Assembly (NCBI GenBank): GCA_031387195.1 | Contig: JANNDA010001144.1 | Coordinates: 1-43,284 of the forward strand | DNA length: 43,284 nucleotides | Origin: Planctomyces sp. | GTDB taxonomy: Bacteria > Planctomycetota > Planctomycetia > Planctomycetales > Planctomycetaceae | Direction of reading: 5' to 3' | Part shown: one piece after another, positions 15,641-43,041 of the stretch | How the letters are laid out: each line of letters starts with the position of its first letter | How positions within the stretch are numbered: position 1 is the first letter of the stretch | Made by a program: the position numbers and the translations under genes | The notes under the pieces: model-generated | Seen by the model: the letters and a program-made list of their open reading frames with translations, nothing else | The model's database searches: none | Told to the model about the DNA's origin: nothing

Positions 15641-16528
15641 TTAATCGGGTGTCGTCAGCCGCACTTCGACACGCAGGCCGACGGGTGCCGAGAAGTCGCC
15701 AGGAAGATCAATGACCACTTCCATGACATGAAGATCTTTGCGTTCGTCGAACTCCGCACGAACGCGAAGTGTGGTCATGTCGGCGAAGAGTGCGGCAGGT
15801 TCATTCAGAGACGTCGAGCAGCCGTCTCCTTCACGTTTGAGATAACGCAGAACTTGTCCCGCGCACGGTGCCGTGATCAGCGTGTTCTGAAGCGTGGCTT
15901 TGGCTTGTGCGACTTCGGACTGAGCGAGTTCAACCTCCGCGATGGAGACCGCTCGGTTTTCTTGAGTCACGTTATTCCTCAGGTGAGCAACAACGGCTTC
16001 TTGTTCTTGGAAAGCAATTTGAGCTTGGTCACGCAACGATCGTATGCCGTCGGATTCCGCAGTGGTTGTCGCTTTACGAGCGGACAATGAGACCTGTCGT
16101 TCAAATTCGGTGACGGCAAAGCGGTGAGCTTCGTGCAGACGTTCCAGCGTTCGTTCGGCAGCGCGAATGCGATGCGGGTTGATGCCCGCATCCAACTCGA
16201 CGAGGTGCGACTTGGCCAATGCAAGTTTTGCTTGTGCGACCTCCAAGGCGCGTTCTTCGACCGCGCTATCCAACTCCAGAATGACATCTCCAGAATTCAA
16301 CCGCTGCCCCTCTGCTGCCACGCATCGCCTCACGATGCCGTTGACCTTCGGCGTCAATCTCCGCAATTCCGAGACTGGCTCGATGTAACCGAGTCCTTCG
16401 ATGGTTTGTGAAGGTCGCGGCGGCGACCGCTCCGAACTGGCTTCGGGCAGCACATTTTTAGACTGCAACATCCAACCCGCGCCCGCCAACAGGCTCAATG
16501 CCACGAGCCATTTCAACGTGGTCTTCAT
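15641..16528 (-). CDS. HlyD-family membrane-fusion (periplasmic adaptor) protein, possibly degenerate at the C-terminus
   Basis: It has an N-terminal anchor (LKWLVALSLLAGAGWML), a lipoyl-like motif (VNGIVRRCVAAEGQRLNSGDVILELD), a long coiled-coil (AQAKLALAKSHL...AEVELAQSEVAQAKATL) and LITAPCAGQVL. The beta-barrel tail looks shortened (RVRAEFDERKDLHVMEVVIDLPGDF). Its ATG (16528) overlaps the stop of the upstream ABC remnant as ATGA. Confidence 0.75.
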   Translation of the reverse strand: MKTTLKWLVALSLLAGAGWMLQSKNVLPEASSERSPPRPSQTIEGLGYIEPVSELRRLTPKVNGIVRRCVAAEGQRLNSGDVILELDSAVEERALEVAQAKLALAKSHLVELDAGINPHRIRAAERTLERLHEAHRFAVTEFERQVSLSARKATTTAESDGIRSLRDQAQIAFQEQEAVVAHLRNNVTQENRAVSIAEVELAQSEVAQAKATLQNTLITAPCAGQVLRYLKREGDGCSTSLNEPAALFADMTTLRVRAEFDERKDLHVMEVVIDLPGDFSAPVGLRVEVRLTTPD

Positions 16529-16808: not shown

Positions 16809-17061
16809 CTAAACAATTCTGCGGAACTTTTTTCAATCGGCCTGACTCTATTCGCCCCTCAAGAGATCGCCGTTGCGAACAGGTGGGCTCGGCGTTTTGA
16901 TGTGTCGGGCTAACGGTCGGTTGAAAATGTGCCGCGTGCGCCACAAATGTTTTCAATGCTCAACTAAGTTTGCGGTCGCTACGCCGTCTAAGGACGTAGC
17001 GAAAGAGTGCATGCGATTCCGTCGGCACTTGGCCTCAATGAAAAACGAGAAAGAGGTTCCC

Positions 17062-32800: not shown

Positions 32801-35800
32801 ATCAGATTCAGGCCATCGCCGCCATTGATCGTGTCGTTCCCCGCACCACCTTCGATGAGGTCATTCGCCGTGCCGCCATCAAGCAAGCTGCCGACCCGAC
32901 CGCCGGTGAGCGTGTCGTTGCCACCCTCGCCGTAGAAATAGACCGGGGCTCCGACAGCCGTATCGCGCGTGCGACGGCTCAAGACGATCAACTTGTCATC
33001 CCCTTCACCGGCATGAATCGTGACCGGCACCGTCAGCGCGGGGCTGACGAAGAACTGATCCGCACCCGCTCCGCTGGTCCCCACGATCGAGGTCACGTCT
33101 CGGAAAAACTGACTGTTGCCAAACGCCGAGAGCCAGACTTCCCCGGCGCGATCACCCGCACCGATGTAGAAGACTTTGTTAGTCCCGCCGCCGGACAAGT
33201 CCAACGTCAGCACGCCCCCTGCAACCGTCGTGTAAAGGTTCGTCAGGTCATCGAAGTCTTGGCCGATGTACGGGATGTCGAATTCGATCGTGAAGAGGTT
33301 GAAGCGAATGTCGATGATCGTGAGTCGGAAGATCGAAATGCCAATGCTCAGTTTCACATAGACGTCCGCACGCACCTCGATCACGAAGCTGCGGTCGTAG
33401 ACCGAGTTGTCGGTGTTGAGGTCGAACTCCTGGGCGCGGATTCGATTTTCCAGGTCGCTGTTGTCGGTGTCGTGCAGGTTCCAGACTTGTCCGAAGAAGA
33501 CAATCGCCTCGACGCCGATTTCCAGTTTGATGATCGACACGTTGAAAACGATCTTCACTCCCAAGCCGATGCCTCCGACGATCTTGGCCTCGTCCGGATC
33601 GGAGTTTGATCCAACCGCCTTAATGGAACCTGGTCCATTTTTCGCGAGTCCCTCGGCATCGTTGAAGTAGAAGCCGTTCACGAGATCGGCGGGGTTGCGC
33701 GTGTGGTTGTATCGGTCTAGCCCCGTGGTATCGAACGCGACCTCGAAGTCCGCTCGCGCCTCAAAAGCGACGACAACGTAAGGTACGAAGTCGACTCCGA
33801 ATGCCGTGACCGCCTTGTAGATCGTGCCGCCCGAATCATCCAAAACCTTTTCCGCGGCCTTCTTCGGAGGGATCGGAATTTGTTGGTAGAGGTACAGGAA
33901 CAATTCCGGCGTGTGGAACTTCAGCAGGTTGGTGTCCTTCAGCACGTTGGCCGGGTTGCCGAGCTTCGCATCGCCAAAGAGCAGGTGGAATGATTGCGCG
34001 GCGTTGTGGTTGGTCGGATCGTTGAGAATCGGCAGTTCGATGGGATTGAAGCCACCGCCACCACCGAAGACGTTAATGAGCACGTTGACGCCACCGCCGA
34101 AGAAGCCTTCAAACTTGCCTCGGCCTGCGAGCATTTGCGTGGCGATGAAGTCGAGTGCCGCATCGTGAATGTGCTCGTCGGTCGCGGCGTTGCCAGCAAG
34201 TCGGCGAACCTGCGCGAAGATCGTGTCGGCGTTGATACTTTCCGACGTTGACGGCGCACCGAACGGCTTCGCATTCACGTTGATCGGTTGCAGATTGACC
34301 GGTGACGTTCGCGCGGCCGTGCCGTCGATCATGAAGTCGGTCAGAGTCGTGTTGCCAATGTCGATCCACGCCGTCCCGGCCAGCGTCGAAAGTGCTTTGA
34401 CATACTGCAACCGCTCCGGCATCCCGCCAAAGCTCTGGCTGCTCCAACCGAAGTCTGCGCGATAGAGCAATTCCCACGGAACCGGAGCCCAGGTATCGAG
34501 CAGATTGCCCGGTGCTCCGACAAGCCACGCTTTGCTGCCTGATCCAAAACCGCCGCCACGAATGAACGCGTCGATGTTCGATCCCGAATTGTTCTCACCG
34601 AGCACAATCCGGCTGATCGCTTCCGCCGCTCCGGCATAATCACCGACCTGCACTCCGCCACCGAAACTGTTCGCGCTCGTGTACGGCGAACGACCGAGAA
34701 CCAGCGAGATGATCGGGAAGGCTTCGTTGGTCAGCAGATAGACGATCGCATCCATCGGGTCCATTGCCGTTTCCAAACGAGTCAGCGCCGCCCCCATGAA
34801 GTCTTTGACGAACGAGACCAACTCGAATTGCGTGTGATCGAAGGAGATCGTCGGCTTGATCTCGGTGTGTGATGTCGTGGTGCTGTTGATAACCGAAGTG
34901 AAGCTCCAATTGCCAATCGTGAGGTCTGTGCGATAGGTCGGCAGCGCCGTTCCAGGCGGCAGATCGGTCTTCAGTTGCAGATTGATTGTCAAACTGTCGT
35001 TGGCCGTGTGTGCGGCATTGGTGCTCGTGAACCCGCCCAGGATGATCCCTCGCGCAGCGGTTTGAACTTGCGGAACCGTCGGTCGAGCCGCCGCTCCGAG
35101 CGAGCCGATCAACTCACTCAACTTCAGCTTGCCGTTCGCATCCGTGTCATTCAGTCGGAAGGCGAAGTCACCGTGCAGCCCCGTGTTCGCTCCGATCTGA
35201 GTGATCTGGTACGGCAGCGTGCCGAGCGTTCCTTTGAGGTGGCCGACTGCCGGATCAGGAGTTGGCAGCGCGACGTCGAGCTTGATCGCGAGTCCGTTGA
35301 TCGTGGACTGATCCAAGTAGACGCCGTCCGCCACGCTGATGCCGAATTTCAACGGCATCGTAAAGCCGAGCCGCACTTGCGATTGACCGTCGATCTTCAA
35401 ACCGAGTCCCGGCAGGATCAGGTCGATATCGGTCGGGATCGGAAGCAACCGTGATGCGACCGCGAGGTTCATGTCGAACAGCACATCGTTCGGCATGTTG
35501 ACGACGACGATGTCTTCCAAATTGACGAACGTGTCGCCGTTCTTGTCCTGTAACCAATTCAGCCCGCCCGGCCCGAACGCATCGAAGATTGCCTGCTTTG
35601 CTTTGTCAGGAGTCAGGATGCCGTGAACGAAATCGAAGTTGTCACCGACCTTGTCTCGAATCTGCGTGAAAAGGTCCGCCGCCTGCATGAGCTGCGTCCC
35701 GACGAACGGTAGCTCGCGCGAAAAGATCGCCGCATCGAACGCGAAGTCGAGCAATCGGAACAGCTCTTGGAAGCCGGATCGCAGACCTTGAATGTTGCCG

Positions 35801-38800
35801 TTCAAGCCACGCGACAACAGCGTCGTCCGCACGCTCGGTCCCGTCGCAGTCAGCGTGGTCGTGCTGCCGACTCCAACCGTGACCGTCGTGATCAATGACT
35901 GTTCTAAGTCGGTCGGATAATGAATCGGAATCGTCGCATCCGCTCTGCCGGAGAAGATTGTTGATGTCCCTGCTGGTGCTTGCGCGAACGTCTGGCGGTT
36001 GTTTGAGCCGCCGCTGAGCGTGACCGCGTAACTGGCGGGGGTCGTGCTCGCACCAGCTCCGTCGCTGTCGAGACGGTAAGTCCCGCCGATGATCTCCACG
36101 CTTCGCGCACCGAATAGCGCTTGGAACGAAAGGTCCGTCTGCTGAGCACTCACGTTGAAATTCATCGTCGTTGCGTTACGCACGAACCCGGCGTGACTGC
36201 TCGCGAGATCGACCCCTAACTTCAGGTTGAGCGTCCCCACCGTCGTGACGTTCACGAGTCGCGTGTTGTTCAAATCGATGATCGCACCAATTGTGTCGAG
36301 ACCGAGCGCCGCCAGATCGACTCCCGTCAGCGCGGCCAAGTCGAGATGGAAGCGCTGCAACGAAGTCTGCGACGGGCTGTAGGTGAGATCGAGCTGCAAC
36401 GCCTCGGTTCCCGAAGTGCCGTCGTGAGTCAGTTCGACGTTCGTGAAGCCGAGCGCTATGAGCGTGCTCTTCAATACTTGCAACGATCGCGGCGGGTTGA
36501 GATTCAGCGCGGCGGCGATCACTTTGAATCGCTCGCCGAACGGGAGCAATTGCCCCAAGCTGCGATTGAGGCCCGTCAACGGCTTCGACAACTCCGGGTC
36601 ACTGTCTTGCAGGCCGACGAGATAATCGCCGGTCTGATCCAACAGCGTGAGGACTTGCGGGATCGTCAGTGTTTGCACGTCGTTTAGGAAGTCGATCGTC
36701 GTGTTCGATCCCGTGAACGAGAGCGTCGGAGCGGTCCCCGAATCGAAGGCGTTCGCGATGTTGATGCTCAACGGAGCGGTCGCCGACAGCCCGCCGAATG
36801 CCGACGTGATCGTGACCGGTGCGGTGATCGCGAAGGCTCCGGTCGGAGTCCCGTTGATGATCTTGGTCACATCGGCAAGACCTTCGAGCAATTCTCGCAA
36901 ACTCGCGAAGCCGTCCGCCGCATCGGTCCCCGCATCGGCGAACGACATGTTGAAGACCGCGCTGCCGGACGCGCTGCCGCCGCTGATCGCGACATCAACC
37001 GGTCCCCACAACCCGGTCGCCGCAAGATTTGTCGTACTCACCGCGACCGATGAGGACAGCGTCGCGCCACGGAATCCGGCATGAGCCGTGGGCACATCGC
37101 CGTCCAACGGGCTCCCGTCGATCAAACGAGTCTGGCTGCTGACGCCGATGTACCGGAGGTTCGTGCTCGCGGAGTCCTGACCAAGATTCGATGCGTCAGT
37201 CAGACCGAGAACCGTTGCCGCCGTGGAACCGCTGAGGTTCGTCACCGCGAACGTTCCGCCGCCGGTCGTGTAATCCAACAGCGACGGGTTGTCGGAACCG
37301 GTCGGCAAGCCGGTCTTGAACTTCGTTTGGTTCACTCCGAGTGCCGTGTTCGCCGTGCTTTGTATGCGGGCGATCAAGTCGCTGACCGTTGTCCCGGCTC
37401 CGTCGAGATCCACGTCGAAAGTGCTGCCGTCCTGCAACGTGATCTTGATGTCGTTGCCCGATGTCGTCCCGAATCCGGCTGTTCGAGTCAGCGACGAGAT
37501 CAACGTGGAATTCGTCACCACCGGTGCGTCACCGGTCGGAGTCAGCCCCAGCGCGATGCGCGCGAACGAATCGTTCAATGCCACGACTTCAAAGTCGCTC
37601 GACCCATTCGTGCCGTCAATCAGTAGCAGTCCCGTGTGACTCTCGTTGATACGAACCTCGAACTGCGCTGTCGTCAGCGAGGCCGTTGTCGCAGCAGTTT
37701 GAATCTTCTGCATGAGATGACCGAGCGTCACGAGCGACGCCTCGGCGAACAGCGTGAGCTCGCCGTCGAGCACTTCCGTCGCAGGCGAGCCGAGACTCAA
37801 TCCGCCAGGCGACGTGACCGCGAACGTCGCGCCGCCGGTGCTGCTATCAATCAAAATCAACGAACCGCGAGCCGCGTTGATCTTGGCGCTGAAGCCCGTC
37901 CCGGTCGGGTTGGCCACGTCATAAGCGGCGTTCAAAGCGGCGACCAGATCCGCCAGTGTCTTCGTGCCGATCGTACCCAGGTCAGCACCGAAGCTCGTTC
38001 CGTCTTTCAGAGTCACCGTGACGTCGTCACCCGCAACGGTCGTGAAGCCCAGCGTCGAAAGGAACGTCGTGGAAGGATCGTGGTCGAGGTTCACGACGAA
38101 GTTTGTGCCGTTGCTCAGATTGATTTGGATGTCATCTTTCCCAGCGATTGTCTCAACGCCGCGACCTCGGTTGAGGTCGCTCACCTTAAAACTCGAAGTC
38201 GTGCCAGAACCGAGATTGAATCCGTTGTGAAGCGCCGCCAGTTCAATCTCAAACGGCAGCGTCAACGTGCCCGACGGAGTCAGCGTCACGGAACCGCCTG
38301 TCGTGGCCACACCGTTGAGCGCACCCGTGCTGAACAACGCCGCCGCTTCCGTCAGCGCGTCGCCGCTTCCGCCGAGTGTGACTGCGGCGGTGAACTTCAG
38401 CGTCGGCGTTCCGGACGTGGCGTAATCGAAACCACTCACCGTCACGTTGGCACCCGCATCAGCCAGTGACACGAACTGCTGAATGCTGCGGAAGCTCGGC
38501 CCCTTGAAGCCGATGCTCTGCGCGACGATCAGCGGCGCGGTGAGGTAAGGACCGGCGCTCGCGTTGATCTTCAAGTCGGTCAGTGCCAGCGAACTGTTCA
38601 ACGCGGACACGCTCGCATTGATCGGCGAGTTACCCGTCTTATCGAGAATCACAAGCCGGTAGTTGGTCGTGTCGAAGCTGACTTCCCACTTGTTGGGTGC
38701 GACGCTGATCGGCGCGGAGTCTTTGATTTTCCGGATCAGATTCGCGAGCGTCGTGTTGGCATCGAGCGAACTCTGGGCCGTGCTGGAATTGAGATCGACG

Positions 38801-40971
38801 TCGAAGGTTGTCGGTCCGATCGTGATTCGGAGGTCGTTCCCCGCAACGGTTCTGACTCCCGTTCCGCTGTTGAGATCGCGGGCGAGCGTGTTTTCATCAA
38901 GCTGCCGCGTCCCCTCAGCGAGCAGATCGAGGTCGCGAGCCGCGAATGACTGATTCAACGCTTCGACCTTCAGAGTCCCTCCGCCGCCCGTCCGATCCGA
39001 AAGGGCGAGCGCACCGCTGCGTGGATCAATGCGGGCCTCGAACGTCCCGTTGGCCGCTGATCCCGACGCCGTTTGAATCTTGCTGATGACTTGCCCCAGA
39101 GTGGTGTCGGACGAAGTCAGATCGACGTTGAACATCGTCCCGTTGCTGAGCGTCACCTTGAAGTCATCGCCCGCCACGAACCGTAGTCCGCCGCCGTTGT
39201 TGAGCGAACTGACGAGCGTGCTGGTCGTCAGCGATTGTGTTTGCACGAGGCTCAAGAAATTCTCAGAGAACTCGCGCTTGAGATTCAGCATGTCGCCGAA
39301 GGTCGTCCCGGAAGCACTCAGCGGAATCGCGAAGCTCAACGCCTTGCTGTCGAACACGCCCAGGAAGTCGGCGAACCCCGAAAAGTGCGCGAGCATCTCA
39401 CTGGCGCTGACGAGCGAGAACGTCTTAATTCCAGCAGCCGTGAAGTTGTCCGAAGCGGTCAACGTGGGCGAGGCAAACAAATCAAACGTCGCACCAGAAT
39501 TCAGACTGGCCAGTGCATGGAGGCCGCTCGGCAATGTCACGGTGACGCCGCTCACCGTCGTCGTTCCATCGAGATTGACCGAGGCATTCGCGGTCCCGGT
39601 CTGCGTGAGCGTTGTCACATCCAGGCTTAGCAAAGCCGACGTCGCCGTCCCGTTGATGCTGTTGGTATTCACCGTGACGTCGGCGTTCAACGTCAGCGCT
39701 GTCGGGCTCGCAAAGTTGAGTCCCAAAAATCCGGAGTTGCCGACGAAGCTCGTCTGATTCAGATCCGCCCCGAACAGCAGGTTGCTCAGCGAGGTCGCCG
39801 TGAACGCGCCCGCCGCCGTTTCGGCCGCTCGCAGCGACCATTGCACGCGTGTCGCGAGATCACCGCGCAACGAATCGACGTTCACCAGCTTTTCAATGTC
39901 CGCTCCCAGCGACAGATCAACGCTCAATGTCGTCTGCACATCGAGCGTGATGTCGAGCGTCACGTCGCCGCTCGCCGTTGTTACCCCGGTCGCACTGACT
40001 CCGGCAATCTGATTGAGCGAGATGAGTGTCTGATACAACGTCGCGCCGCCGGCAAGGCCGTTGATCGTGTCTGCGAGCTTGCTCCTGAGCATCCCGCCCA
40101 AATCGTAAACGTCGCCGATCGCCTGCCCATCGAGAATGAACAACGTCTGATCGAGCTTGCCCGTCGCTTCCAACCGATCGCCAACTCCCGCCACTTCGGT
40201 CAGCCCGTTGACGAGATTGGTCTTGTTCGCCGCCCCCGCCACGTTGAGCGACGTCAACGACGCCCCGTTGTCAATCAGCACATAATTCTTGCCGGCACCC
40301 TTCTTGACCGTCTGCACGTTCTCAACGGTGACCATCGTCGTCCAAACGGGGACCGACGCCGTTCCCGTGTTCTCCTCGATATCCACCTTGTTCACGCCGG
40401 TGACGTGAATCCGCAAGTCCGCCGTCCAAGCCGACAAGTCCAACGTGTTCGAGCCGCTCCCCGCGACAAACAACTCAACGTTATTCACCGTCTGCCGCAA
40501 CGTCCCCGCCGCACCGCCGCCGGTCACATCACTGACGGCGATCGACGTCCCCGCCGCGTTGAGCGAGAGATACTCGTTGCTACTAATCGCCGACAAATTG
40601 AGCGTGTCCGCAGTCCCCGCCCCACCATCAATCGTCGTCGAACTCGCTTGCGAATACGCCGAGACAGTGACGAGGTCATCCGCCCCCAATCCGTTCACCG
40701 CTAGCGTGTCAGCACTCGCCACACTCTGTGTCGCCCCGCCTATCAACGCGACCGAGCTACTCGTAATGACGAACGAGTCGGGACTCGCCGTACCGTTCGA
40801 AGTAATCGCCGCCAGCAACGTCCGGTCTTCCAGTCGTTCCATCACTGGGCTGAAAAAGTCCGCGTGCTCCAAAGTCCTTTTCTGAATCTGGAACCCCTGC
40901 TTCAACCCTCGACTACGACCGAACTGGCGACATCGACGCGGAATGGTCCCCAACCAATTAAATAGCATCAT
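23848..40971 (-). CDS. Giant (5,707 aa) mosaic extracellular protein: LEPR-XLL-like N-terminal leader, repeat-rich adhesin-like body, two RTX (hemolysin-type Ca-binding) blocks, Calx-beta/cadherin-like sandwiches, two PPC domains
   Basis: Single uninterrupted 17.1-kb ORF. The N-terminus is ...SPVMERLEDRTLLAA. GGxGxD nonapeptide runs occur centrally (GGAGNDTINGGDGLNLIRGFAGDDSITGGNDMDSIDGGVGADTIDG...) and at the C-terminus. DND...EGG sandwiches are present (VQINDNDQAGIIVTESGDGTAVIEGG). PPC-like segments are present (DTYLVTLKAGNTYTFDMDG...DDDSG). The acidic/hydrophobic tail is ...LSTLAEIDEAFTFDFSKLLV. Confidence 0.9.
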   Translation of the reverse strand: MMLFNWLGTIPRRCRQFGRSRGLKQGFQIQKRTLEHADFFSPVMERLEDRTLLAAITSNGTASPDSFVITSSSVALIGGATQSVASADTLAVNGLGADDLVTVSAYSQASSTTIDGGAGTADTLNLSAISSNEYLSLNAAGTSIAVSDVTGGGAAGTLRQTVNNVELFVAGSGSNTLDLSAWTADLRIHVTGVNKVDIEENTGTASVPVWTTMVTVENVQTVKKGAGKNYVLIDNGASLTSLNVAGAANKTNLVNGLTEVAGVGDRLEATGKLDQTLFILDGQAIGDVYDLGGMLRSKLADTINGLAGGATLYQTLISLNQIAGVSATGVTTASGDVTLDITLDVQTTLSVDLSLGADIEKLVNVDSLRGDLATRVQWSLRAAETAAGAFTATSLSNLLFGADLNQTSFVGNSGFLGLNFASPTALTLNADVTVNTNSINGTATSALLSLDVTTLTQTGTANASVNLDGTTTVSGVTVTLPSGLHALASLNSGATFDLFASPTLTASDNFTAAGIKTFSLVSASEMLAHFSGFADFLGVFDSKALSFAIPLSASGTTFGDMLNLKREFSENFLSLVQTQSLTTSTLVSSLNNGGGLRFVAGDDFKVTLSNGTMFNVDLTSSDTTLGQVISKIQTASGSAANGTFEARIDPRSGALALSDRTGGGGTLKVEALNQSFAARDLDLLAEGTRQLDENTLARDLNSGTGVRTVAGNDLRITIGPTTFDVDLNSSTAQSSLDANTTLANLIRKIKDSAPISVAPNKWEVSFDTTNYRLVILDKTGNSPINASVSALNSSLALTDLKINASAGPYLTAPLIVAQSIGFKGPSFRSIQQFVSLADAGANVTVSGFDYATSGTPTLKFTAAVTLGGSGDALTEAAALFSTGALNGVATTGGSVTLTPSGTLTLPFEIELAALHNGFNLGSGTTSSFKVSDLNRGRGVETIAGKDDIQINLSNGTNFVVNLDHDPSTTFLSTLGFTTVAGDDVTVTLKDGTSFGADLGTIGTKTLADLVAALNAAYDVANPTGTGFSAKINAARGSLILIDSSTGGATFAVTSPGGLSLGSPATEVLDGELTLFAEASLVTLGHLMQKIQTAATTASLTTAQFEVRINESHTGLLLIDGTNGSSDFEVVALNDSFARIALGLTPTGDAPVVTNSTLISSLTRTAGFGTTSGNDIKITLQDGSTFDVDLDGAGTTVSDLIARIQSTANTALGVNQTKFKTGLPTGSDNPSLLDYTTGGGTFAVTNLSGSTAATVLGLTDASNLGQDSASTNLRYIGVSSQTRLIDGSPLDGDVPTAHAGFRGATLSSSVAVSTTNLAATGLWGPVDVAISGGSASGSAVFNMSFADAGTDAADGFASLRELLEGLADVTKIINGTPTGAFAITAPVTITSAFGGLSATAPLSINIANAFDSGTAPTLSFTGSNTTIDFLNDVQTLTIPQVLTLLDQTGDYLVGLQDSDPELSKPLTGLNRSLGQLLPFGERFKVIAAALNLNPPRSLQVLKSTLIALGFTNVELTHDGTSGTEALQLDLTYSPSQTSLQRFHLDLAALTGVDLAALGLDTIGAIIDLNNTRLVNVTTVGTLNLKLGVDLASSHAGFVRNATTMNFNVSAQQTDLSFQALFGARSVEIIGGTYRLDSDGAGASTTPASYAVTLSGGSNNRQTFAQAPAGTSTIFSGRADATIPIHYPTDLEQSLITTVTVGVGSTTTLTATGPSVRTTLLSRGLNGNIQGLRSGFQELFRLLDFAFDAAIFSRELPFVGTQLMQAADLFTQIRDKVGDNFDFVHGILTPDKAKQAIFDAFGPGGLNWLQDKNGDTFVNLEDIVVVNMPNDVLFDMNLAVASRLLPIPTDIDLILPGLGLKIDGQSQVRLGFTMPLKFGISVADGVYLDQSTINGLAIKLDVALPTPDPAVGHLKGTLGTLPYQITQIGANTGLHGDFAFRLNDTDANGKLKLSELIGSLGAAARPTVPQVQTAARGIILGGFTSTNAAHTANDSLTINLQLKTDLPPGTALPTYRTDLTIGNWSFTSVINSTTTSHTEIKPTISFDHTQFELVSFVKDFMGAALTRLETAMDPMDAIVYLLTNEAFPIISLVLGRSPYTSANSFGGGVQVGDYAGAAEAISRIVLGENNSGSNIDAFIRGGGFGSGSKAWLVGAPGNLLDTWAPVPWELLYRADFGWSSQSFGGMPERLQYVKALSTLAGTAWIDIGNTTLTDFMIDGTAARTSPVNLQPINVNAKPFGAPSTSESINADTIFAQVRRLAGNAATDEHIHDAALDFIATQMLAGRGKFEGFFGGGVNVLINVFGGGGGFNPIELPILNDPTNHNAAQSFHLLFGDAKLGNPANVLKDTNLLKFHTPELFLYLYQQIPIPPKKAAEKVLDDSGGTIYKAVTAFGVDFVPYVVVAFEARADFEVAFDTTGLDRYNHTRNPADLVNGFYFNDAEGLAKNGPGSIKAVGSNSDPDEAKIVGGIGLGVKIVFNVSIIKLEIGVEAIVFFGQVWNLHDTDNSDLENRIRAQEFDLNTDNSVYDRSFVIEVRADVYVKLSIGISIFRLTIIDIRFNLFTIEFDIPYIGQDFDDLTNLYTTVAGGVLTLDLSGGGTNKVFYIGAGDRAGEVWLSAFGNSQFFRDVTSIVGTSGAGADQFFVSPALTVPVTIHAGEGDDKLIVLSRRTRDTAVGAPVYFYGEGGNDTLTGGRVGSLLDGGTANDLIEGGAGNDTINGGDGLNLIRGFAGDDSITGGNDMDSIDGGVGADTIDGSVGADTIDGNADNDLILGGEGADMLSGGDGRDTIRGGAGDDVIFGELGSDYVYGDEGADTLFGAQNDDYLSGGAGNDRLDGEGASDEIYGDNGLTGAQVPDEGKVPFNKDVIISGEGNDTLNGQQDSDTYLITYHGGKSSSVITVLDTGSEVGTDIFQVTGTVNSDKILLRASTDGGSAFVALLNDDLNAEVIHYIGVERIAINGSFGNDTFVSDDTSAEVVLNGDDGDDTFQIGQIFRSQRTHDFANVAIADEFATIETTRGFLSNGVSAPMTINGGAGSDTFTVYHNLAVLTLNGDEGNDNFQIKAFALVGSEDSKRARTDISGGAGGDLIQYAVNAPVNIDGGDGFDSLIAIGTEFGDDFVITENGVFGAGLNVHFANIESLKIDGAEGDDRFFVQSTSPTFATEILGGLGNDTFNMSGATPPVDSNDLLGHSGIVTHGVESVDPRYDAQKLYGISANVADNDEPGVVIRQSDGATIIAEGGQTDQYTVVLTHQPTTDILVKALAPLMTEKQRELRTRAFSVSSPAPGAINSADGTSVALRFTRDNWFIPQTVTVGATSQVFTDAAGLLTRPELGDSPTFAYDDNSDEGVRFGVINHIVVADVRSVSGQMTAATNVTSVSKATQVLLEITSTPTGTYTLTIDSIPVTASAGGDVSATLDAIKTAVNNAQQAASSSSPLQDVTARRMIQSTITVSGPITPGKQYQIKLGEQLVTYTVPDSGVSSVAQVASGLALAINAANLTRVTADDRADNGTLVVLAPSTTTITDPLNVTASTPIQLLQLSAEDGNLLTDDSTNFSVTGAGARFNVDGSAGATTTLVQDTTNLNDSLIGRKLTITGGPGAGQQRFVTGISGGSIVTVDRPWNIDDSPTKESSYLIRIDDALVGRPSTSSTGTTFTDTARTTLFPTAGEGLRGRILQVVGGPGGGQQRLILSNTATTLTLNGNITVSTASVYRIELFDGLAVPGVSVQINDNDQAGIIVTESGDGTAVIEGGDGNQTGERDTLTIQLTKTPSGTVTVALSNPDGQLSPSASSLSFSSTAPQTVTLSAAQDIVREGEHTGLLNFGLSGGNADLAVPTTVNFAPVRPTFYVGLPQTPDATPAVTVTVNLVARDPSRFAVVGNKIVFLQAVPDALAEGKFEAVTGSIAVSYTYTIDGFAAAVTNPVLVRINDDDAPTVLVRETGGSTDVVEGGAQIVTLNVTGGTFVTDSLVGRTITLTSGTGAIQSAKGGVTPTTSATVISNTNNTVTVFHQWTVLPDSTTTFTISTPPSPASISVPGSRSGEISVAAERDTYLVTLKAGNTYTFDMDGSDSGQGTLRDTFLRLFDSNLTQVASDDDSGPGLSSHLVYTPTADGTFTLNAGSYIDATTGTYRLNTSVAGEIPASTATGASLVLPGSANGNVDSSGDQDWFRISMEVGFTYTFDLNGNSLTDPMLRLIGTNGSTELAFNDDYFGLQSRIIYTPTVTGTYYLAATGYSTRTGTYMLSGTISPTPFQIATITTQNMSSDTYDVVLTAEPTHPVIVIVTPEMTVTTRTGGIRHEAVQVTVSSSDSRVTNNGDGTLTVTFSAGDWDRPVVVTTTAIDDNFVDGGDKQVFAPHPNTLSRILGPLTVNGGGDEGSLNVNSALVLPGETNINASTGNVVGFVDATHMTVTTANLQTYLGSGVLLATLVGKTLTVTQAINNTALDQFRLILAQAAGTVAGTTVLTLNDSFDLGAGLRSDITKYAITTQSVNFFADEEQSIDTIFVHDEDSPADSSGVLTANTITGFHMGPDNVDGVVLHGQFKTYGITFNQLEVVDLNLGRGFNNLKVLGTPTRSDGYQAWTFAHTGDDQPDPNQPNITGDNVTIRLNAVESITQDDAVLHPLFSSASNLVDGRSQITFTGSPFAGLDLRGQVFRADNDEELRIVSHTNNVLTLLGNWDSLPTGAMTLQVVKLADGRFALDAGGGNDVVDASGSTLPLFLFGGAGNDSITGGLGNDVIFGDMGRVDFFGDADTNGNRPIVTRLGFAPDPITALATGPFTNQSTLNDSAANFPVPDGNDIGLVGLYVSINNGTGFTQEPRLITGNTTTSLTVSPNWSIPLDATSRYRISTTPENQTDGRVHTDFLAISVSATIGGNDTISSGLGRDVIFGGSGADNIATSASMADAVILGDNGSANYIGGVLTHIQTSDAAHGGNDTITSTAGREVIFGGSGADTINVSASSADVVILGDNGSADFTGSVLTHVQTNSVAFGGNDTITSIAGQNVIFGGSGGDTINATGSTSKAVIVGDHGTANFSGGLLTNIATSDTTSGGNDDITGGTSLDFLIGGFGNDTIRGAGDTDRIVGDNAVMTFVSGLFFSLTQSNPAGTFGNDSLFGGLADDTINGGSGNDTLTGDEGNDRLLGELGDDFYVFAACNIAEIDTVIELTGEGTDWLDFSALPDTINVLVDLTKDNALGTHLNRTVITGAAGQAVNVENAIGGAGQDTFLGSVANNRFEGRNGQDTFTGAAGSDTIVGGQGDDIYLFFNASVLETDVVIEMANEGIDLLDFRGLTPPAGVVVNLTSDIATATHRNRKLITGGAGQAANLENVFTTVGHDIITGNGANNRIETGNGNDKIYAGSGNDTVLAGTGNDTIDGGTGIDWIIDSTLSDFVLATNLIVGNGTDPLASIEHAELFGNSLKNKLDASRFTPGYVILHAGDGDDTLLGGAGSDLLEGGNGIDLVIQTSRFDQVLTPTLLTGNGSDTLSSIERANLIASNSLGNLIDASGFNGPVTLTGGTGPDRIRSSPVGGLISGGSGKDTIIGGAAADNINGGNDDDSISSGDGFDTISGGVGNDWLDGGIGADLITGGDGRDKIFGDTGSDTIDGGTGDDTISGGAGADSITGGSGNDIISGGDGSDFLDGQSGNDVLLGDDGSDTLRGGAGRDVCLGGDDNDNVDGGAERDTIAGGSGNDVLSTLAEIDEAFTFDFSKLLV
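23851..24400 (-). repeat. C-terminal RTX nonapeptide (GGxGxDxxx) block of the giant protein
   Basis: The stretch is GGSGKDTIIGGAAADNINGGNDDDSISSGDGFDTISGGVGNDWLDGGIGADLITGGDGRDKIFGDTGSDTIDGGTGDDTISGGAGADSITGGSGNDIISGGDGSDFLDGQSGNDVLLGDDGSDTLRGGAGRDVCLGGDDNDNVDGGAERDTIAGGSGND. The boundaries are approximate. Confidence 0.85.
25663..26370 (-). repeat. Four tandem 177-bp (59-aa) repeats inside the giant CDS
   Basis: The units start at 26370, 26193, 26016 and 25839. Examples are GGNDTISSGLGRDVIFGGSGADNIATSASMADAVILGDNGSANYIGGVLTHIQTSDAAH and GGNDTITSTAGREVIFGGSGADTINVSASSADVVILGDNGSADFTGSVLTHVQTNSVAF. The third unit is similar and the fourth is more diverged. Confidence 0.85.
28250..28890 (-). 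other. Two tandem bacterial pre-peptidase C-terminal (PPC)-like domains within the giant protein
   Basis: The first is SRSGEISVAAERDTYLVTLKAGNTYTFDMDGSDSGQGTLRDTFLRLFDSNLTQVASDDDSGPGLSSHLVYTPTADGTFTLNAGSY. The second is GNVDSSGDQDWFRISMEVGFTYTFDLNGNSLTDPMLRLIGTNGSTELAFNDDYFGLQSRIIYTPTVTGTYYLAATGY. Both fit the PPC pattern (D.D.Y.f....g....i.l......D..l.l.d..g......dD). The coordinates are approximate. Confidence 0.7.
32432..32935 (-). repeat. Central RTX nonapeptide block of the giant protein
   Basis: The stretch is GEGGNDTLTGGRVGSLLDGGTANDLIEGGAGNDTINGGDGLNLIRGFAGDDSITGGNDMDSIDGGVGADTIDGSVGADTIDGNADNDLILGGEGADMLSGGDGRDTIRGGAGDDVIFGELGSDYVYGDEGADTLFGAQNDDYLSGGAGNDRLDGEGASDEIYGDNG. The boundaries are approximate. 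Confidence 0.85.
37190..39230 (-). repeat. Array of about five ~100-aa modules resembling FliD / flagellin-hook-IN-type repeats within the giant protein
   Basis: The recurrent pattern is LNxGxGV..VAGxD..ITLxxGTxFxVDL....TLxxLIxKIQxA....FxAxI......LxLxDxTGGG..FxVxxLNxSxAAxxLGL. One example is SLNNGGGLRFVAGDDFKVTLSNGTMFNVDLTSSDTTLGQVISKIQTAS...FEARIDPRSGALALSDRTGGGGTLKVEALNQSFAARDLDL. Others start at LARDLNSGTGVRTVAGNDLRITIGPTTFDVDL, KVSDLNRGRGVETIAGKDDIQINLSNGTNFVVNL, TVAGDDVTVTLKDGTSFGADL and TSGNDIKITLQDGSTFDVDL. Confidence 0.6.
40807..40971 (-). other. N-terminal leader of the giant protein with a LEPR-XLL-like motif
   Basis: The sequence is MMLFNWLGTIPRRCRQFGRSRGLKQGFQIQKRTLEHADFFSPVMERLEDRTLLAA. 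It has a short hydrophobic patch, then an Arg/Lys-rich stretch, then LEDRTLL (codons at 40833-40813). Confidence 0.7.
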
Positions 40972-41327
40972 GAAGTGCGTTTCCTAAATTGGGAGCGTAT
41001 TCCCGGCGTTACAGATTCGACTTGACGCAGTTTTGAGAGGCTCGTTGCACGAATCACGAATAACTCGACAACCGGCAAAAGCTGCATGAGGGGAGGGAAA
41101 TCGTAATCTGGCAAAGTGGCGGGATGTATCCAGAATAGTGGAACATTGCCGATTATGGCGATTGGTCAGATAGAGAACTGACACACTTCTCGCCTCTAGT
41201 GCCTCGTCAAGACTTGAAACGTGGGTTGTGAGCGGCAAGGCGCGTTGGTGTGATGGTCATCGTGGCGGAGGTCGTGCTGCCGCTGTTGATGCCGAACACA
41301 AACTGCAAAATCGTCAGCCCCGGGAGA

Positions 41328-42641
41328 TCAATAAATGGCCCCGGCAGCCTGCGTGGAGGTTAGATCGGTATCGCCATCGAAGTCCAAGTCCAAGGCCGAG
41401 AGGTTGTACGTCGTGATTCCCGTGCCGAGCCAAGCGACGAGGTCGAACGTGTCTCCCACGCCAGTCGTCGGGTTGTAGTCGAGCTTGACCACGGAGAGGT
41501 TGGTGTAGGTCAGCGGTTGGCCCGCCGTCACATTCATCGTCGTGCTGGACGTCGCTGAGATCAGATAGACCGCTCGTTGCTGGACGGATTGAGCGAGCTT
41601 CCTGTTGTAGACATTGCCCACGACATGAGCCATGCCGTTGGCTTCGATCAGCAACGCCGTCTGCTCGTTGATCCCCATGCCACGCGGCGTAACAGCCAAA
41701 CCGTCTTGATCCATGCGGGCCATGAAGGTGACCAATCGGCCCATGCGGTCGCGCTGCTGGAAGTGGCTGTCCGTGACAAAGTCGTCCAAATAACGCAGCA
41801 CGCTCTGCTGCCCAGGTTTGGCGACGACGAAGTCATTCTCGCTGACGAACCCACTATCGAGGATCACTCGCGAGTCATACGGGTTGGCCATCGCTTCCGT
41901 GGAAGTGATCGTGCCGGCCTGAGCAGAGAAGTCGAATTCGCTGAGCACGGCCAGTCCGGCGCTGGTGCCGCCAATCGGCGCGTTCCGCGCAATCGCATCG
42001 TAGATCGCGGTTTCAAGAGCCGTGTTCTTCCACAGATTGATGTAGTCCGCCTGATCGCCTCCCGCGATGAAGATGGCTTCGGCTTCGCGGATCTTCTGCG
42101 CGACGAAAGCATCATTCGCTCCTGCGATCGTCGAGATCACCAGCGTGGCCACGGAGTCCAGCGCTGGAACCAGCCCGTCGATGTAGGAGTTATACGCACT
42201 GGTCCCGGTGGCTCGCAGAACGACGAAGTCTCCGCCATTGGCCTTGGCTCCCAGCCAACGGAAGACCTCGTCGATATCGGTGCCACCACCCAGCAAGGCC
42301 AGCCCGCTGGATAACGCATTCACGGCGGCATCGGCGGCATTGCCCACGACCGAATAGACGTAGTCCTTGGGTGCCGCTGCGGCCGCGGTGCCCTTGCCTC
42401 CGGCGTTCTGTTCGCCGTTCGCCTCGAAGACGTCGGCCTGGCTGAATTGCAGCGCGGGGGAGTCGTAAATTGGCGCGTGTGCCAGTCCCACGTTGGCGGT
42501 GAGCAATTGCCGAGGTTCCAGTTGTTCCAGTCCGAATGACCGAAAACCACTCCGACGACGAGTTGGTCGATTCCTCGGAACCTCAAACCGATGAATCTGG
42601 TTTCCCAACACCGCCAACCAACCACTCAATAAGCGATTCAT
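41328..42641 (-). CDS. Peptidase S51 / cyanophycinase-like (class-I glutamine-amidotransferase-fold) protein with a LEPR-XLL N-terminal leader
   Basis: It has the S51 motifs AIFIAGGDQADY and PIGGTSAGLAVLSE (nucleophile Ser in GTSAG), plus DSHFQQRDRMGRLVTFM. The ORF extends to 42845, but ATG 42641 gives MNRLLSGWLAVLGNQIHRFEVPRNRPTRRRSGFRSFGLEQLEPRQLLTA, the usual position of this leader. Confidence 0.8.
   Translation of the reverse strand: MNRLLSGWLAVLGNQIHRFEVPRNRPTRRRSGFRSFGLEQLEPRQLLTANVGLAHAPIYDSPALQFSQADVFEANGEQNAGGKGTAAAAAPKDYVYSVVGNAADAAVNALSSGLALLGGGTDIDEVFRWLGAKANGGDFVVLRATGTSAYNSYIDGLVPALDSVATLVISTIAGANDAFVAQKIREAEAIFIAGGDQADYINLWKNTALETAIYDAIARNAPIGGTSAGLAVLSEFDFSAQAGTITSTEAMANPYDSRVILDSGFVSENDFVVAKPGQQSVLRYLDDFVTDSHFQQRDRMGRLVTFMARMDQDGLAVTPRGMGINEQTALLIEANGMAHVVGNVYNRKLAQSVQQRAVYLISATSSTTMNVTAGQPLTYTNLSVVKLDYNPTTGVGDTFDLVAWLGTGITTYNLSALDLDFDGDTDLTSTQAAGAIY
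42495..42641 (-). other. LEPR-XLL leader of the S51 protein
   Basis: LEQLEPRQLL is encoded at 42530-42501 and is an exact LEPRxLL motif. It is preceded by the Arg-rich stretch RNRPTRRRSGFRSFG and a short hydrophobic N-terminus. Confidence 0.75.
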
Positions 42642-42983: not shown

Positions 42984-42991
42984 TCCTCCAG

Positions 42992-43026: not shown

Positions 43027-43041
43027 CAAAGCCACAACACC

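What the first reader, a model, noticed from the sequence alone, without database searches (positions are those of the whole stretch)
40807..42641. Two adjacent same-strand genes share a non-Sec-like N-terminal leader (short hydrophobic patch, Arg-rich tract, LExLE(P/D)RxLL)
The S51 protein starts MNRLLSGWLAVLGNQIHRFEVPRNRPTRRRSGFRSFGLEQLEPRQLLTA. The giant starts MMLFNWLGTIPRRCRQFGRSRGLKQGFQIQKRTLEHADFFSPVMERLEDRTLLAA. Both begin with an M..L..WL. patch, then a strongly basic stretch, then the LE.R.LL(A/T)A motif at about residue 45-55. This is the reverse of the Sec n-region/h-region order. From memory, this corresponds to what RefSeq family models call the 'LEPR-XLL domain', and I believe its function and any cognate sorting or processing machinery are not established. 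Finding it on an enzyme-sized protein immediately upstream of a giant carrier of the same leader suggests a shared export or anchoring route.
Basis: partly seen in the sequence, partly recalled or inferred. Interest (0 to 1): 0.65.

Follow-up and report, generated by a model that had tools for sequence, protein, structure and literature searches.

The report
Known planctomycete export leader, two genes
Two neighbouring genes of a freshwater planctomycete, a secreted-type S51 peptidase and a 5707-residue calcium-binding giant, both start with the planctomycete "extracellular protein" leader described in 2004; the leader stands where ordinary secretion signals stand in relatives from other phyla, but its machinery is still unknown.

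Summary
Both genes are on the minus strand: S51 at 42641..41328 and the giant at 40971..23848. Each opens with a basic tract followed by h-E-x-L-E-x-R-x-L-L-[AT]-A at residues 38-49 (S51) and 44-55 (giant).

This is the published "Planctomycete extracellular" motif: Pfam PF07595, consensus RRLxxExLExRxLLA (Studholme 2004). NCBIfam NF012209 (LEPR-XLL) covers the same residues. Both proteins score below the curated cut-offs (PF07595 17.3 and 14.4 bits against 25.5). Even so, other evidence makes S51 a clear member and the giant a divergent one: orthologue conservation, an independent profile, a pattern null, and synonymous-only variation.

The new evidence concerns function. In the S51 family, planctomycete members carry this leader exactly where Acidobacteriota, Chloroflexi, Proteobacteria and Thermoplasmata members carry a classical Sec signal peptide. 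The leader has no hydrophobic core, and AlphaFold predicts it to be disordered. It therefore most likely acts as a sequence-specific N-terminal export tag. The translocase and any cleavage remain unknown.

The S51-giant adjacency is not conserved in relatives. However, leader-bearing genes do cluster around S51 genes in other planctomycete loci. The N-terminal "WL" patch is conserved in S51 orthologues but is only weakly recurrent elsewhere.

The parts
41328..42641 (-). Gene for a 437-aa S51-family peptidase (a distant cyanophycinase relative). It consists of the leader, a disordered linker, and a catalytic domain from about residue 94.
   Evidence: ORF. PF03575 scores 40.3 bits against a cut-off of 23.9, while TIGR02069 cyanophycinase scores 77.6 against 126.6. 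PDB cyanophycinases match at E=6.5e-9. The GGTSAG serine motif, TDSHF and E188 are invariant in alignment A1. In the AlphaFold model residues 1-88 have pLDDT below 50 and the fold starts at about residue 94.
42603..42641 (-). S51 leader, N-terminal hydrophobic/aromatic patch (residues 1-13, MNRLLSGWLAVLG).
   Evidence: M-x-[KR]-x-L-x-x-W-[LV] is conserved in orthologues P0001-P0009 and L004. It varies more than the motif: 10 changes in residues 7-22 against the 91%-identical P0001. The best Kyte-Doolittle 10-residue mean is about 1.9, which is short and weak for a Sec h-region.
42531..42590 (-). S51 leader, Arg-rich tract (residues 18-37, with 7 Arg).
   Evidence: Read directly from the sequence. 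RP[TI]RRR is conserved in five orthologues. In the census of 127 leaders, the 14 residues before the motif are 43% R+K and 3% D+E.
42489..42542 (-). S51 leader motif, residues 34-51 (R-S-F-G-L-E-Q-L-E-P-R-Q-L-L-T-A-N-V). It matches all 14 informative positions of the family logo.
   Evidence: PF07595 matches residues 38-51 at 17.3 bits, E=0.0037. NF012209 matches residues 36-54 at 11.4 bits. An independent HMM built without the window sequences and close orthologues gives 22.1 bits, against a noise maximum of 9.9 bits. The motif is 84% identical among five orthologues, against 78% for the enzyme body.
23848..40971 (-). Gene for a 5707-aa giant protein. The first ~2700 residues are an orphan Thr/Ser/Gly/Ala-rich region. 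The C-terminal half is full of RTX calcium-binding repeats and also has PPC domains.
   Evidence: ORF. PF00353 HemolysinCabind scores 77 and 224 bits over 21 stretches, from about residue 2740 to the C-terminus, and PPC scores 25.1 bits. NCBIfam gives only RTX and serralysin repeat hits. The first 700 residues have no homologue at E<=1e-5, and JGI metagenome contigs hold no relatives.
40801..40971 (-). Giant leader, residues 1-57: a MMLFNWLGTI patch, a basic tract (8 R/K), then the core motif M-E-R-L-E-D-R-T-L-L-A-A at residues 44-55 (40807-40842).
   Evidence: PF07595 matches residues 44-55 at 14.4 bits, E=0.032. The strict pattern hit has zero hits in the null set. The leader deviates from the logo at -10 (F), -8 (P) and +6 (I), and it scores only 5.3-5.8 bits with the HMM built without it. 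A variant contig in run X5 shows 5 synonymous and 0 non-synonymous changes in codons 44-57, against 4 synonymous and 5 non-synonymous in codons 58-75.
40972..41327 (-). 356-nt spacer between the two genes. It contains a piece of a multi-copy dispersed element (41196-41243).
   Evidence: No terminator-like or sigma-70-like site was found in the spacer. The 48-nt piece is found in many contigs with unlike flanks and at 3-5 times the local depth. There is no Rfam or tRNA match.

Best explanation
Both proteins carry the planctomycete N-terminal 'extracellular protein' leader (Pfam PF07595 Planc_extracel; the same residues are modelled by NCBIfam NF012209 LEPR-XLL). The leader has two constant parts. 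First comes a strongly basic, acid-free tract of about 8-40 residues. Then comes an 18-residue box, R-x-L-x-h-E-x-L-E-x-R-Q-L-[LM]-A-A-D-h, in which E(-5), L(-3), E(-2) and R(0) are nearly invariant. Long versions such as the two here add a short hydrophobic/aromatic patch right after the Met.

The leader works as an N-terminal export or surface-sorting tag. It occupies the position that a Sec signal peptide occupies in the same enzyme family outside the Planctomycetes.

Steps that are inferred rather than shown:
- The leader has no hydrophobic core, and its conserved residues are charged. It is therefore probably read by a sequence-specific protein partner (a receptor, translocase subunit or processing peptidase) rather than by partitioning into the SecY lateral gate.
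- Conservation stops abruptly after the small-small-polar A-A-D(+6)-h(+7) end of the box. This is the most likely place for processing.

The two genes share a route, not a specific partnership. S51 is an exported exopeptidase. The giant is a calcium-dependent surface or fibre protein.
For: - Motif identity: PF07595 hits both leaders, and 42 of 45 proteins found with my leader profile match PF07595.
- N-terminal restriction: an exhaustive profile search of 1.84e9 proteins gave 258 hits at E<=1e-3. Among the best 150, the motif Arg lies at median residue 31, and in 127 of 135 cases within the first 60 residues.
- Replacement of Sec signals: in S51 homologues the catalytic domain starts at Y-x-Y-x-V-G-N. 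Planctomycete members (P0001-P0078; named MAG loci L004-L007, L024, L034) have the leader before it. Acidobacteriota, Chloroflexi, Proteobacteria and Thermoplasmata members (L008-L083) have a classical signal peptide there, with a Kyte-Doolittle 12-residue maximum above 2.
- No h-region: the best 10-residue hydropathy window in 127 leaders has a median of 1.45, and the pre-motif tract is 42-43% R+K.
- Cargo is of extracellular type: RTX in 10 of 45, dockerin in 8 of 45, plus subtilases, Calx-beta, PPC, CARDB and Ig-like domains.
- The leader is not part of the fold: S51 residues 1-88 have pLDDT below 50.
- Purifying selection: the S51 motif is 84% identical among orthologues, more than the enzyme body. 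The giant motif shows only synonymous changes.
- Published proteomics: 20 of 52 T. immobilis proteins carrying the motif were detected, 8 of them only in the SDS (cell wall/outer membrane) fraction. Eight of the 10 longest proteins carry it (PMC8567305).
Against: - Neither protein reaches the curated cut-off of PF07595 or NF012209.
- The giant's leader scores as noise with a profile built without it (5.3-5.8 bits), and it departs from the logo at three positions.
- No experiment anywhere shows export dependence on the motif, a cleavage site or a partner protein. The proteomic localisation is only correlative.
- RTX proteins are normally type I secretion substrates with C-terminal signals, so the giant may not need an N-terminal signal at all.
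- NF012209-annotated giants with RTX and serralysin C-termini are reported in Vibrio and Limnohabitans (PMC10868602 and PMC9611531). This does not fit a purely planctomycete export route.
- Codon usage of the pre-motif part is atypical: GC3 is 0.46 in S51 codons 1-37, against 0.74 for the gene.
Confidence: 0.72

Rival explanations
1. Atypical Sec signal with an N-terminal extension (ESPR-like layout). In this reading the patch is H1, the Arg tract is N2, and the weakly hydrophobic stretch after the Arg (LLTANVGLAHA in S51, TLLAAIT in the giant) is a poor H2. Signal peptidase I would then cut after the L-x-A. The E-x-L-E-x-R box would only tune targeting or slow translocation of very large cargo, as ESPR does for type V proteins.
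For: The geometry fits: basic residues come before a segment rich in L/M/A, and A at +5 with L/M at +3 could satisfy a relaxed -1/-3 rule. The leader stands exactly where Sec signals stand in orthologues. Like ESPR, it is frequent on the largest proteins (PMC8567305). The window's organism also uses ordinary Sec signals, for example the 2265-aa protein at 16873..23670.
Against: - After the Arg, only four residues (+2 to +5) are hydrophobic or small before a conserved Asp at +6. Mean hydropathy is about 0 from +10 onward, and the best 10-residue window has a median of 1.45.
- Invariant Glu residues inside a signal are unknown for Sec substrates (established knowledge of Sec signal peptides).
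- No ESPR (PF13018), TAT_signal or other signal model hit appeared at E<=10.
- Short-form leaders have no H1 at all.
Confidence: 0.2
2. Leader for a dedicated, Sec-independent exporter. The box would be recognised in the cytoplasm, for example by an ABC-type (type I-like, C39-peptidase-like) transporter, in the way double-glycine leaders are. It would be cut after the two small residues (A-A|D).
For: - The leader is short, N-terminal, non-hydrophobic and sequence-specific, and it ends in two small residues.
- If cleavage follows +5, the hydrophobic residues fall at -4 and -12 and a Glu falls at -8, as in LSxxELxxIxGG leaders. This comparison is from memory and is only a lead.
- 22% of the cargo carries RTX repeats, which are typical of one-step ABC-dependent secretion.
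- NF012209 giants in Proteobacteria have RTX/serralysin ends.
Against: No exporter or peptidase gene is consistently next to leader genes in the ten planctomycete loci examined. The only membrane-fusion protein in the window (15641..16528) stands alone. Known peptidase-containing ABC exporters handle small peptides, not proteins of 400-10,000 residues. Nothing here tests cleavage.
Confidence: 0.15
3. Surface-retention or anchoring element rather than an export signal. In the giant, secretion would be C-terminus-first through a type I system. The N-terminal leader would be the last part to emerge and would keep the protein on the cell, like the retention module of LapA-type adhesins.
For: The giant ends in RTX repeats up to about 25 residues from its C-terminus. 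Motif proteins fractionate with the SDS-soluble envelope fraction.
Against: - S51 and most cargo (35 of 45) have no RTX repeats.
- In S51 homologues the leader is exchanged with a Sec signal, not with an anchor.
- No retention-module or type I target-domain family hit was found in the giant.
- The leader is predicted to be disordered, whereas retention modules are folded domains.
Confidence: 0.08
4. Chance resemblance, or mis-called starts. In this reading the giant's match is a low-complexity accident, or translation starts downstream, so that only S51 truly has the leader.
For: The giant scores 5.3-5.8 bits with a profile built without it, which is within noise. It lacks R(-10) and L(-8). 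It has no homologues to show conservation. The coding signal of codons 1-43 is weak.
Against: - The strict core pattern has 0 hits in 1.16 million residues of control ORFs.
- A match placed within the first 1% of a 5707-residue protein, behind a +6 basic tract, is what the family predicts.
- The core is nearly identical to that of an unrelated leader in L006 (IERLEDRSLLAAAP).
- A variant contig shows only synonymous changes across the motif.
- Even a start at M44 keeps the core.
Confidence: 0.07

Closest known systems
Pfam PF07595 Planc_extracel ('Planctomycete extracellular' motif, RRLxxExLExRxLLA; Studholme, Fuerst & Bateman 2004, as cited in PMC8567305)
   Same: Same residues, same order and same N-terminal position, with the same kind of cargo (RTX, dockerin, peptidases, giant proteins) in a planctomycete host. 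42 of 45 proteins retrieved with my profile match it.
   Different: Both window proteins are below the gathering score (17.3 and 14.4 against 25.5). S51 has R-S-F-G in place of R-R-L-x, and the giant lacks R(-10) and L(-8). Both have unusually long pre-motif tracts with an N-terminal hydrophobic patch.
NCBIfam NF012209 'LEPR-XLL domain-containing protein' (model name LEPR-8K)
   Same: It aligns to S51 residues 36-54, so it covers the same box. It is named for about 8000-residue giants with RTX ends, which is the architecture of the giant here.
   Different: It is a narrower model: only 8 of 45 census proteins hit it at E<=0.1. S51 scores 11.4 against a cut-off of 17, and the giant has no hit. 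It is reported on proteobacterial proteins (Vibrio, Limnohabitans), so it is not planctomycete-specific.
T. immobilis 'Planctomycetes-specific signal peptide' LxLExLExRxxP (PMC8567305)
   Same: Same L-E-x-L-E-x-R core, on 52 proteins including 8 of the 10 longest. These proteins fractionate with the envelope.
   Different: The Gemmata-type ending is R-x-x-P, whereas here it is R-x-L-L-[AT]-A. A few S51 homologues do show the R-x-x-P ending (P0021, P0060).
ESPR, the extended signal peptide region of type V secreted giants (Pfam PF13018)
   Same: It works alike in layout: a conserved N-terminal extension with a hydrophobic/aromatic patch and a charged stretch, enriched on very large surface proteins.
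   Different: No sequence match at E<=10. ESPR is followed by a complete classical signal peptide, and these leaders are not.
Twin-arginine (Tat) signal peptides
   Same: An invariant Arg followed by x-L/F-L, with a moderately hydrophobic stretch afterwards. Some members read S-R-R-L-F-S.
   Different: Only one Arg is invariant; the next residue is Q in 78 of 135. There are conserved Glu residues and no h-region. The cargo includes 5-10 thousand-residue RTX proteins, which would not be expected to fold before transport. No TAT_signal hit was found.
Double-glycine leaders of peptidase-containing ABC exporters
   Same: A non-hydrophobic, sequence-specific N-terminal leader ending in two small residues, so a possible functional analogue.
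   Different: No homology was tested or shown. The cargo sizes differ by orders of magnitude. No linked exporter was seen here.

Membership tests
Pfam PF07595 Planc_extracel | HMM score at or above the gathering score (25.5 bits) | tested here: not met
   S51 scores 17.3 bits (E=0.0037) and the giant 14.4 bits (E=0.032) on the first 80 residues. On longer queries S51 scores 15.5 bits and the giant has no hit. The cut-off is conservative: only 1 of about 69 motif-bearing S51 homologues has a precomputed PF07595 call.
Pfam PF07595 Planc_extracel | Consensus residues R-x-L-x-h-E-x-L-E-x-R-x-L-h-[AST]-A | tested here: met
   S51 matches all 14 informative logo positions. The giant matches the core from -6 to +5 but not -10, -8 or +6. 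An independent HMM gives S51 22.1 bits against a noise maximum of 9.9, but gives the giant only 5.8 bits. The strict pattern null has 0 hits in 1.16 million residues.
Pfam PF07595 Planc_extracel | Location at the extreme N-terminus behind a basic, acid-poor tract | tested here: met
   The motif Arg is at residue 44 (S51) and residue 50 (giant). The census median is 31, and 127 of 135 lie within the first 60 residues. Pre-motif net charge is about +7 and +6. Starts are supported for S51 and for the giant.
Pfam PF07595 Planc_extracel | Cargo of extracellular or cell-surface type | tested here: met
   The giant has RTX and PPC domains. S51 homologues outside the phylum carry Sec signal peptides, and some planctomycete ones carry dockerins.
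Pfam PF07595 Planc_extracel | Planctomycete host | tested here: met
   The nearest named relatives of S51 are Planctomycetaceae and Pirellula MAGs (70% and 51% identity). The window's own record is not identified. The DNA occurs in freshwater sediment metagenomes.
Pfam PF07595 Planc_extracel | Acts as an export signal (the proposed function) | not testable with these tools
   Only indirect support exists: replacement of Sec signals in orthologues and published fractionation data.
NCBIfam NF012209 LEPR-XLL | HMM score at or above the curated cut-off (17 bits) | tested here: not met
   S51 scores 11.4 bits over residues 36-54. The giant has no hit at E<=10.
Sec (type I) signal peptide | Hydrophobic h-region of about 8-15 residues after a basic n-region, followed by a small-x-small cleavage site | tested here: not met
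   The best 10-residue hydropathy window is 1.9 (S51 patch, which lies before the basic tract rather than after it) and 1.3 (giant). The census median is 1.45, against more than 2 for Sec-type homologues. SignalP was not available.
Tat signal peptide | Twin-arginine S/T-R-R-x-F-L-K followed by an h-region | tested here: not met
   No TAT_signal or TIGR01409 hit at E<=10. Only one Arg is invariant.
ESPR (PF13018) | ESPR sequence followed by a classical signal peptide | tested here: not met
   No hit at E<=10, and no downstream h-region.
Type I secretion RTX adhesin (LapA-like) | N-terminal retention module, C-terminal T1SS target domain, and adjacent ABC/MFP/TolC and LapG/LapD genes | tested here: inconclusive
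   RTX repeats are present. No retention-module or T1SS-target family hit was found in the giant. The only HlyD-family gene in the window (15641..16528) is isolated. The rest of the genome was not seen.
Peptidase family S51 / cyanophycinase | S51 fold with the Ser nucleophile motif; cyanophycinase equivalog score | tested here: met
   PF03575 scores 40.3 bits against 23.9, and GGTSAG is invariant. The cyanophycinase equivalog TIGR02069 is not met (77.6 against 126.6). The protein is therefore an S51 family member, but its substrate is not established.

The most novel reading that the evidence does not exclude
The leader defines a Sec-independent export pathway. A cytoplasmic or inner-membrane receptor, possibly an ABC-type exporter with a processing peptidase, would read the invariant E-x-L-E-x-R box and cut after A-A|D. 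This route would carry the whole planctomycete surface proteome, including proteins of 5-10 thousand residues. The long-form N-terminal W/L patch seen in both window genes would be an auxiliary element, analogous to ESPR, for slow or very large cargo. The S51 family, which switches between this leader and Sec signals across phyla, would be the natural test system.
Probability: 0.17. Interest if true: 0.8.

Novelty: new member of a known kind. Interest (0 to 1): 0.33.

Why it matters
The motif marks dozens of proteins per planctomycete genome, including most of the largest ones. More than twenty years after its description, nobody knows which machine reads it or whether it is cleaved.

These two genes add nothing new in kind. 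Two by-products of the check are useful, though.

1. The S51 peptidase family is a clean natural experiment. The same catalytic domain carries this leader in Planctomycetes and a classical Sec signal in at least four other phyla. That gives a small, assayable cargo for leader-swap and mutagenesis experiments.

2. A census-based logo shows the box running from -10 to +7 and ending sharply at A-A-D-h. This points to a candidate processing site that N-terminomics could test.

Tried and rejected
- Homologue search with the giant's first 700 residues found nothing at E<=1e-5. A JGI metagenome scan with its first 250 residues gave 255 pattern matches, none confirmed. Conservation of the giant's N-terminal patch therefore could not be tested.
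- A word-indexed search with the leader alignment returned only 10 short fragments and was uninformative.
- An exact look-up of the S51 protein found no record.
- Looking for RNA evidence of the starts found no RNA runs. The DNA runs are sediment and freshwater metagenomes.
- Conserved synteny between S51 and a giant is rejected: three orthologue contexts all differ.
- The leader as a docking propeptide is rejected. AlphaFold leaves residues 1-88 disordered with no predicted secondary structure.
- Tat, ESPR and lipoprotein-type signals gave no model hits at E<=10.
- A type I secretion operon next to the giant was not found. There is only an isolated HlyD-family gene 7 kb away.
- The spacer between the genes has no Rfam family above threshold, no tRNA and no significant fold. 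The 48-nt repeat has no match in the 83 fetched loci.

Full report
**What is there.** Both genes lie on the minus strand. The S51-like gene runs 42641..41328 (437 aa). The giant runs 40971..23848 (5707 aa). A 356-nt spacer separates them. The S51 protein is a member of peptidase family S51: PF03575 scores 40.3 bits against a cut-off of 23.9. It falls below the cyanophycinase equivalog cut-off (77.6 against 126.6). It is distantly related to solved cyanophycinases, and the GGTSAG nucleophile motif is invariant in the family alignment.

The giant has no recognisable domain and no detectable homologue in its first ~2700 residues. Its second half is filled with RTX calcium-binding repeats and also has PPC domains. 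The other genes of the window are housekeeping genes: Ldh_2, G6PD, MoaC, an epimerase, and by their sequence AroA and RsmB. There are also an isolated HlyD-family adaptor and a 2265-aa orphan with an ordinary Sec signal.

**The observation.** A loose motif pattern occurs three times in the six-frame translation of the window, and two of these are the leaders. A strict pattern, E.[LM]E.R.[LMFP][LMF][AST]A, has no hit in 1.16 million residues of ORFs from 73 non-planctomycete loci. It has eight hits in 0.18 million residues from ten planctomycete loci. All eight lie at ORF starts, and both window proteins are among them.

**Start codons.** For S51, the ATG and the following M-x-[KR]-x-L-x-x-W-L are conserved in orthologues at 64-74% identity. 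Two of those orthologues have in-frame stops just upstream. A related-strain contig loses similarity 14 nt upstream of the ATG. For the giant, the ORF opens only four codons before MM, and an AGGAAA lies 10 nt upstream. The only alternative start, M44, would still keep the core motif.

**What it is.** Pfam PF07595 ('Planctomycete extracellular') matches S51 residues 38-51 (17.3 bits) and giant residues 44-55 (14.4 bits). NCBIfam NF012209 (LEPR-XLL) matches S51 residues 36-54 (11.4 bits) and does not match the giant.

The cut-offs, however, are conservative for such a short motif. Of about 69 S51 homologues that plainly have the box, only one carries a precomputed PF07595 call. I built a profile from S51-family leaders without the window sequences and their close orthologues. 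With it S51 scores 22.1 bits, against a noise maximum of 9.9 bits in 6583 control ORFs. The giant scores only 5.8 bits.

The giant is therefore a divergent instance. Its core from -6 to +5 (M-E-R-L-E-D-R-T-L-L-A-A) is perfect, and almost identical to an unrelated leader found in L006 (IERLEDRSLLAAAP). It lacks R(-10) and L(-8) and has Ile at +6. A diverged contig in a metagenome run covers codons 25-89 of the giant. It shows five synonymous and no non-synonymous changes in codons 44-57, against four synonymous and five non-synonymous in codons 58-75. This argues that the motif is translated and under constraint.

**Literature.** The motif RRLxxExLExRxLLA was described in Rhodopirellula baltica by Studholme et al. 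[quoted passage not shown] In Tuwongella immobilis, 52 proteins carry LxLExLExRxxP. Twenty were detected by mass spectrometry, eight of them only in the SDS-soluble envelope fraction, and eight of the ten longest proteins carry the motif (PMC8567305). 'LEPR-XLL' appears in only two papers of the library. One describes an ~8000-aa Vibrio giant with RTX and serralysin C-terminal domains. The other mentions a Limnohabitans protein. I found no paper that identifies the machinery.

**Census.** An exhaustive profile search of 1.84 billion representative proteins gave 258 hits at E<=1e-3. Among the best 150:
- The invariant Arg lies at median residue 31, and within the first 60 residues in 127 of 135 cases.
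- The logo is R-x-L-x-h-E-x-L-E-x-R-Q-L-[LM]-A-A-D-h, and information collapses after +7.
- The pre-motif tract is 42-43% Arg+Lys and 1-3% Asp+Glu.
- The best 10-residue hydropathy window has a median of 1.45, so there is no Sec-type hydrophobic core.
- Of 45 longer hits, 42 match PF07595 but only 8 match NF012209. PF07595 is therefore the fitting family and NF012209 a narrower model of the same box.
- The cargo domains are RTX (10 of 45), dockerin (8 of 45), subtilase, Calx-beta, PPC, CARDB, DUF11 and Ig-like.

**Function.** The most informative result comes from the S51 family itself. The catalytic domain begins at a conserved Y-x-Y-x-V-G-N. In planctomycete members this is preceded by the leader and a variable linker, sometimes with a dockerin. 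These members include the named Planctomycetaceae, Pirellula and Planctomycetia MAG loci L004-L007, L024 and L034. In members from Acidobacteriota, Chloroflexi, Proteobacteria and Thermoplasmata (L008-L083), it is preceded by a textbook Sec signal peptide. The leader thus takes the place of a secretion signal on the same enzyme.

AlphaFold leaves S51 residues 1-88 without structure (pLDDT below 50) and starts the fold at about residue 94. The leader is therefore not a docking propeptide. Among five S51 orthologues the box is 84% identical. That is more than the enzyme body (78%) and far more than the pre-motif part (49%).

I conclude that the leader is an N-terminal export or sorting tag (confidence about 0.7). 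It probably works through a sequence-specific partner rather than through membrane partitioning. That conclusion is an inference from the invariant charged residues and the missing hydrophobic core. The sharp end of conservation at A-A-D-h is the likeliest processing site, which is also an inference. Whether the route goes through Sec, a dedicated ABC-type exporter or something else cannot be decided here. The rival explanations are listed with their tests.

**The N-terminal patch.** It is, however, the least constrained part of the leader. Against the 91%-identical P0001 there are ten changes in residues 7-22, but only two in residues 23-49. Most leaders in the census are short and have no such patch. 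Among 56 long leaders, the first 14 residues are richer in hydrophobic residues (25% against 15%). Seventeen have a Trp in the first 20 residues, where about ten are expected, and several read like the window's patches (MLRNFSAWAV, MAHKNWLSRL, THWLSRIL). The patch is therefore an optional, weakly recurrent accessory of long leaders and not a defining feature. Codon usage of the pre-motif part is atypical: GC3 is 0.46 for S51 codons 1-37, against 0.74 for the gene. I leave this unexplained.

**Adjacency.** Three S51 orthologue contexts are all different and contain no giant. Related-strain contigs cover S51 but not the giant. A specific S51-giant partnership is therefore not supported. However, in ten planctomycete loci, five of six other ORFs matching the leader pattern lie within two genes of the S51 gene. 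The sixth, in L004, looks like a chance pattern match. The five are the giant here, a 179-aa protein in L002, a 728-aa protein in L006, a 746-aa protein in L034 and a PAP2/VCPO-like protein in L001. The permutation P is about 0.006. The sample is small and the test was chosen after seeing the data. It does suggest that genes for leader-bearing proteins tend to sit together.

**Verdict.** This is a correct observation of a motif that has been known since 2004 and is annotated in two HMM libraries. The two genes are new members: one typical long-form member and one divergent. The mechanism remains an open question that this window cannot settle. The S51 family offers a practical way to test it.

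Noticed in passing
window 41196-41243 (spacer between the S51 gene and the giant): A 48-nt piece is present in many different contigs of other metagenome runs. The sequence on its low-coordinate side is unlike in each. On its high-coordinate side many of the other copies share the continuation TAGCCGCCGGTC, which the window lacks. Local depth is 3-5 times that of the flanks. It looks like the end of a multi-copy dispersed element, and it may mark a rearrangement that brought the giant next to S51.
   Followed up: partly
L001 12341-14122(-), L002 6245-6784(+), L006 3085-5268(+), L034 11627-13864(-): Other, unrelated genes with the same N-terminal leader lie within two genes of the S51 homologue in four further planctomycete loci. 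Leader-bearing genes cluster, with permutation P about 0.006.
   Followed up: partly
window 42531-42641 (S51 codons 1-37) and 40843-40971 (giant codons 1-43): The pre-motif parts of both leaders have atypical codon usage. GC3 is 0.46 and 0.60, against 0.74-0.76 for the genes. The codon log-likelihood is about 0 or negative, although protein-level conservation shows that the S51 part is translated.
   Followed up: partly
window 42937-42990 and 42992-43027: The divergent spacer between S51 and the gene that starts at about 43044 (+) reads like dihydroxy-acid dehydratase. The spacer contains a 23-nt inverted repeat (91% complementary, 8-nt loop). Directly after it comes a perfect (CCGAACA)x5 tandem repeat.
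   Followed up: no
window 42665-42683 (-): A terminator-like hairpin with a T-run lies only 24 nt upstream of the S51 start codon, inside the upstream in-frame ORF extension. This is a further hint that the extension is not coding. Its role (attenuator, or the end of an upstream transcript) is unknown.
   Followed up: no
window 32752-40971 (-), giant residues 1 to about 2740: About 2700 residues of Thr/Ser/Gly/Ala/Leu-rich sequence have no Pfam or NCBIfam domain and no homologue at E<=1e-5 for the first 700 residues. This is an orphan half of a giant protein.
   Followed up: partly
window 16873-23670 (+): A 2265-aa protein with a classical Sec-type signal (…HWLRAVLVALAMGAGITGVRQPQLAASE) has no Pfam or NCBIfam family at all. 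It shows that the organism uses ordinary Sec signals alongside the leader.
   Followed up: no
window 15641-16528 (-): An isolated HlyD-family membrane-fusion protein (best NCBIfam hits HlyD at 73 bits and the DevB-type ABC-exporter adaptor at 54 bits, all below cut-off). No ABC transporter or outer-membrane partner lies next to it.
   Followed up: no
window 4943-6361 (+): A 472-aa protein combines TPR repeats with two copies of the RNA polymerase alpha C-terminal domain (PF03118, 143 bits, 2 stretches). This is an unusual architecture.
   Followed up: no
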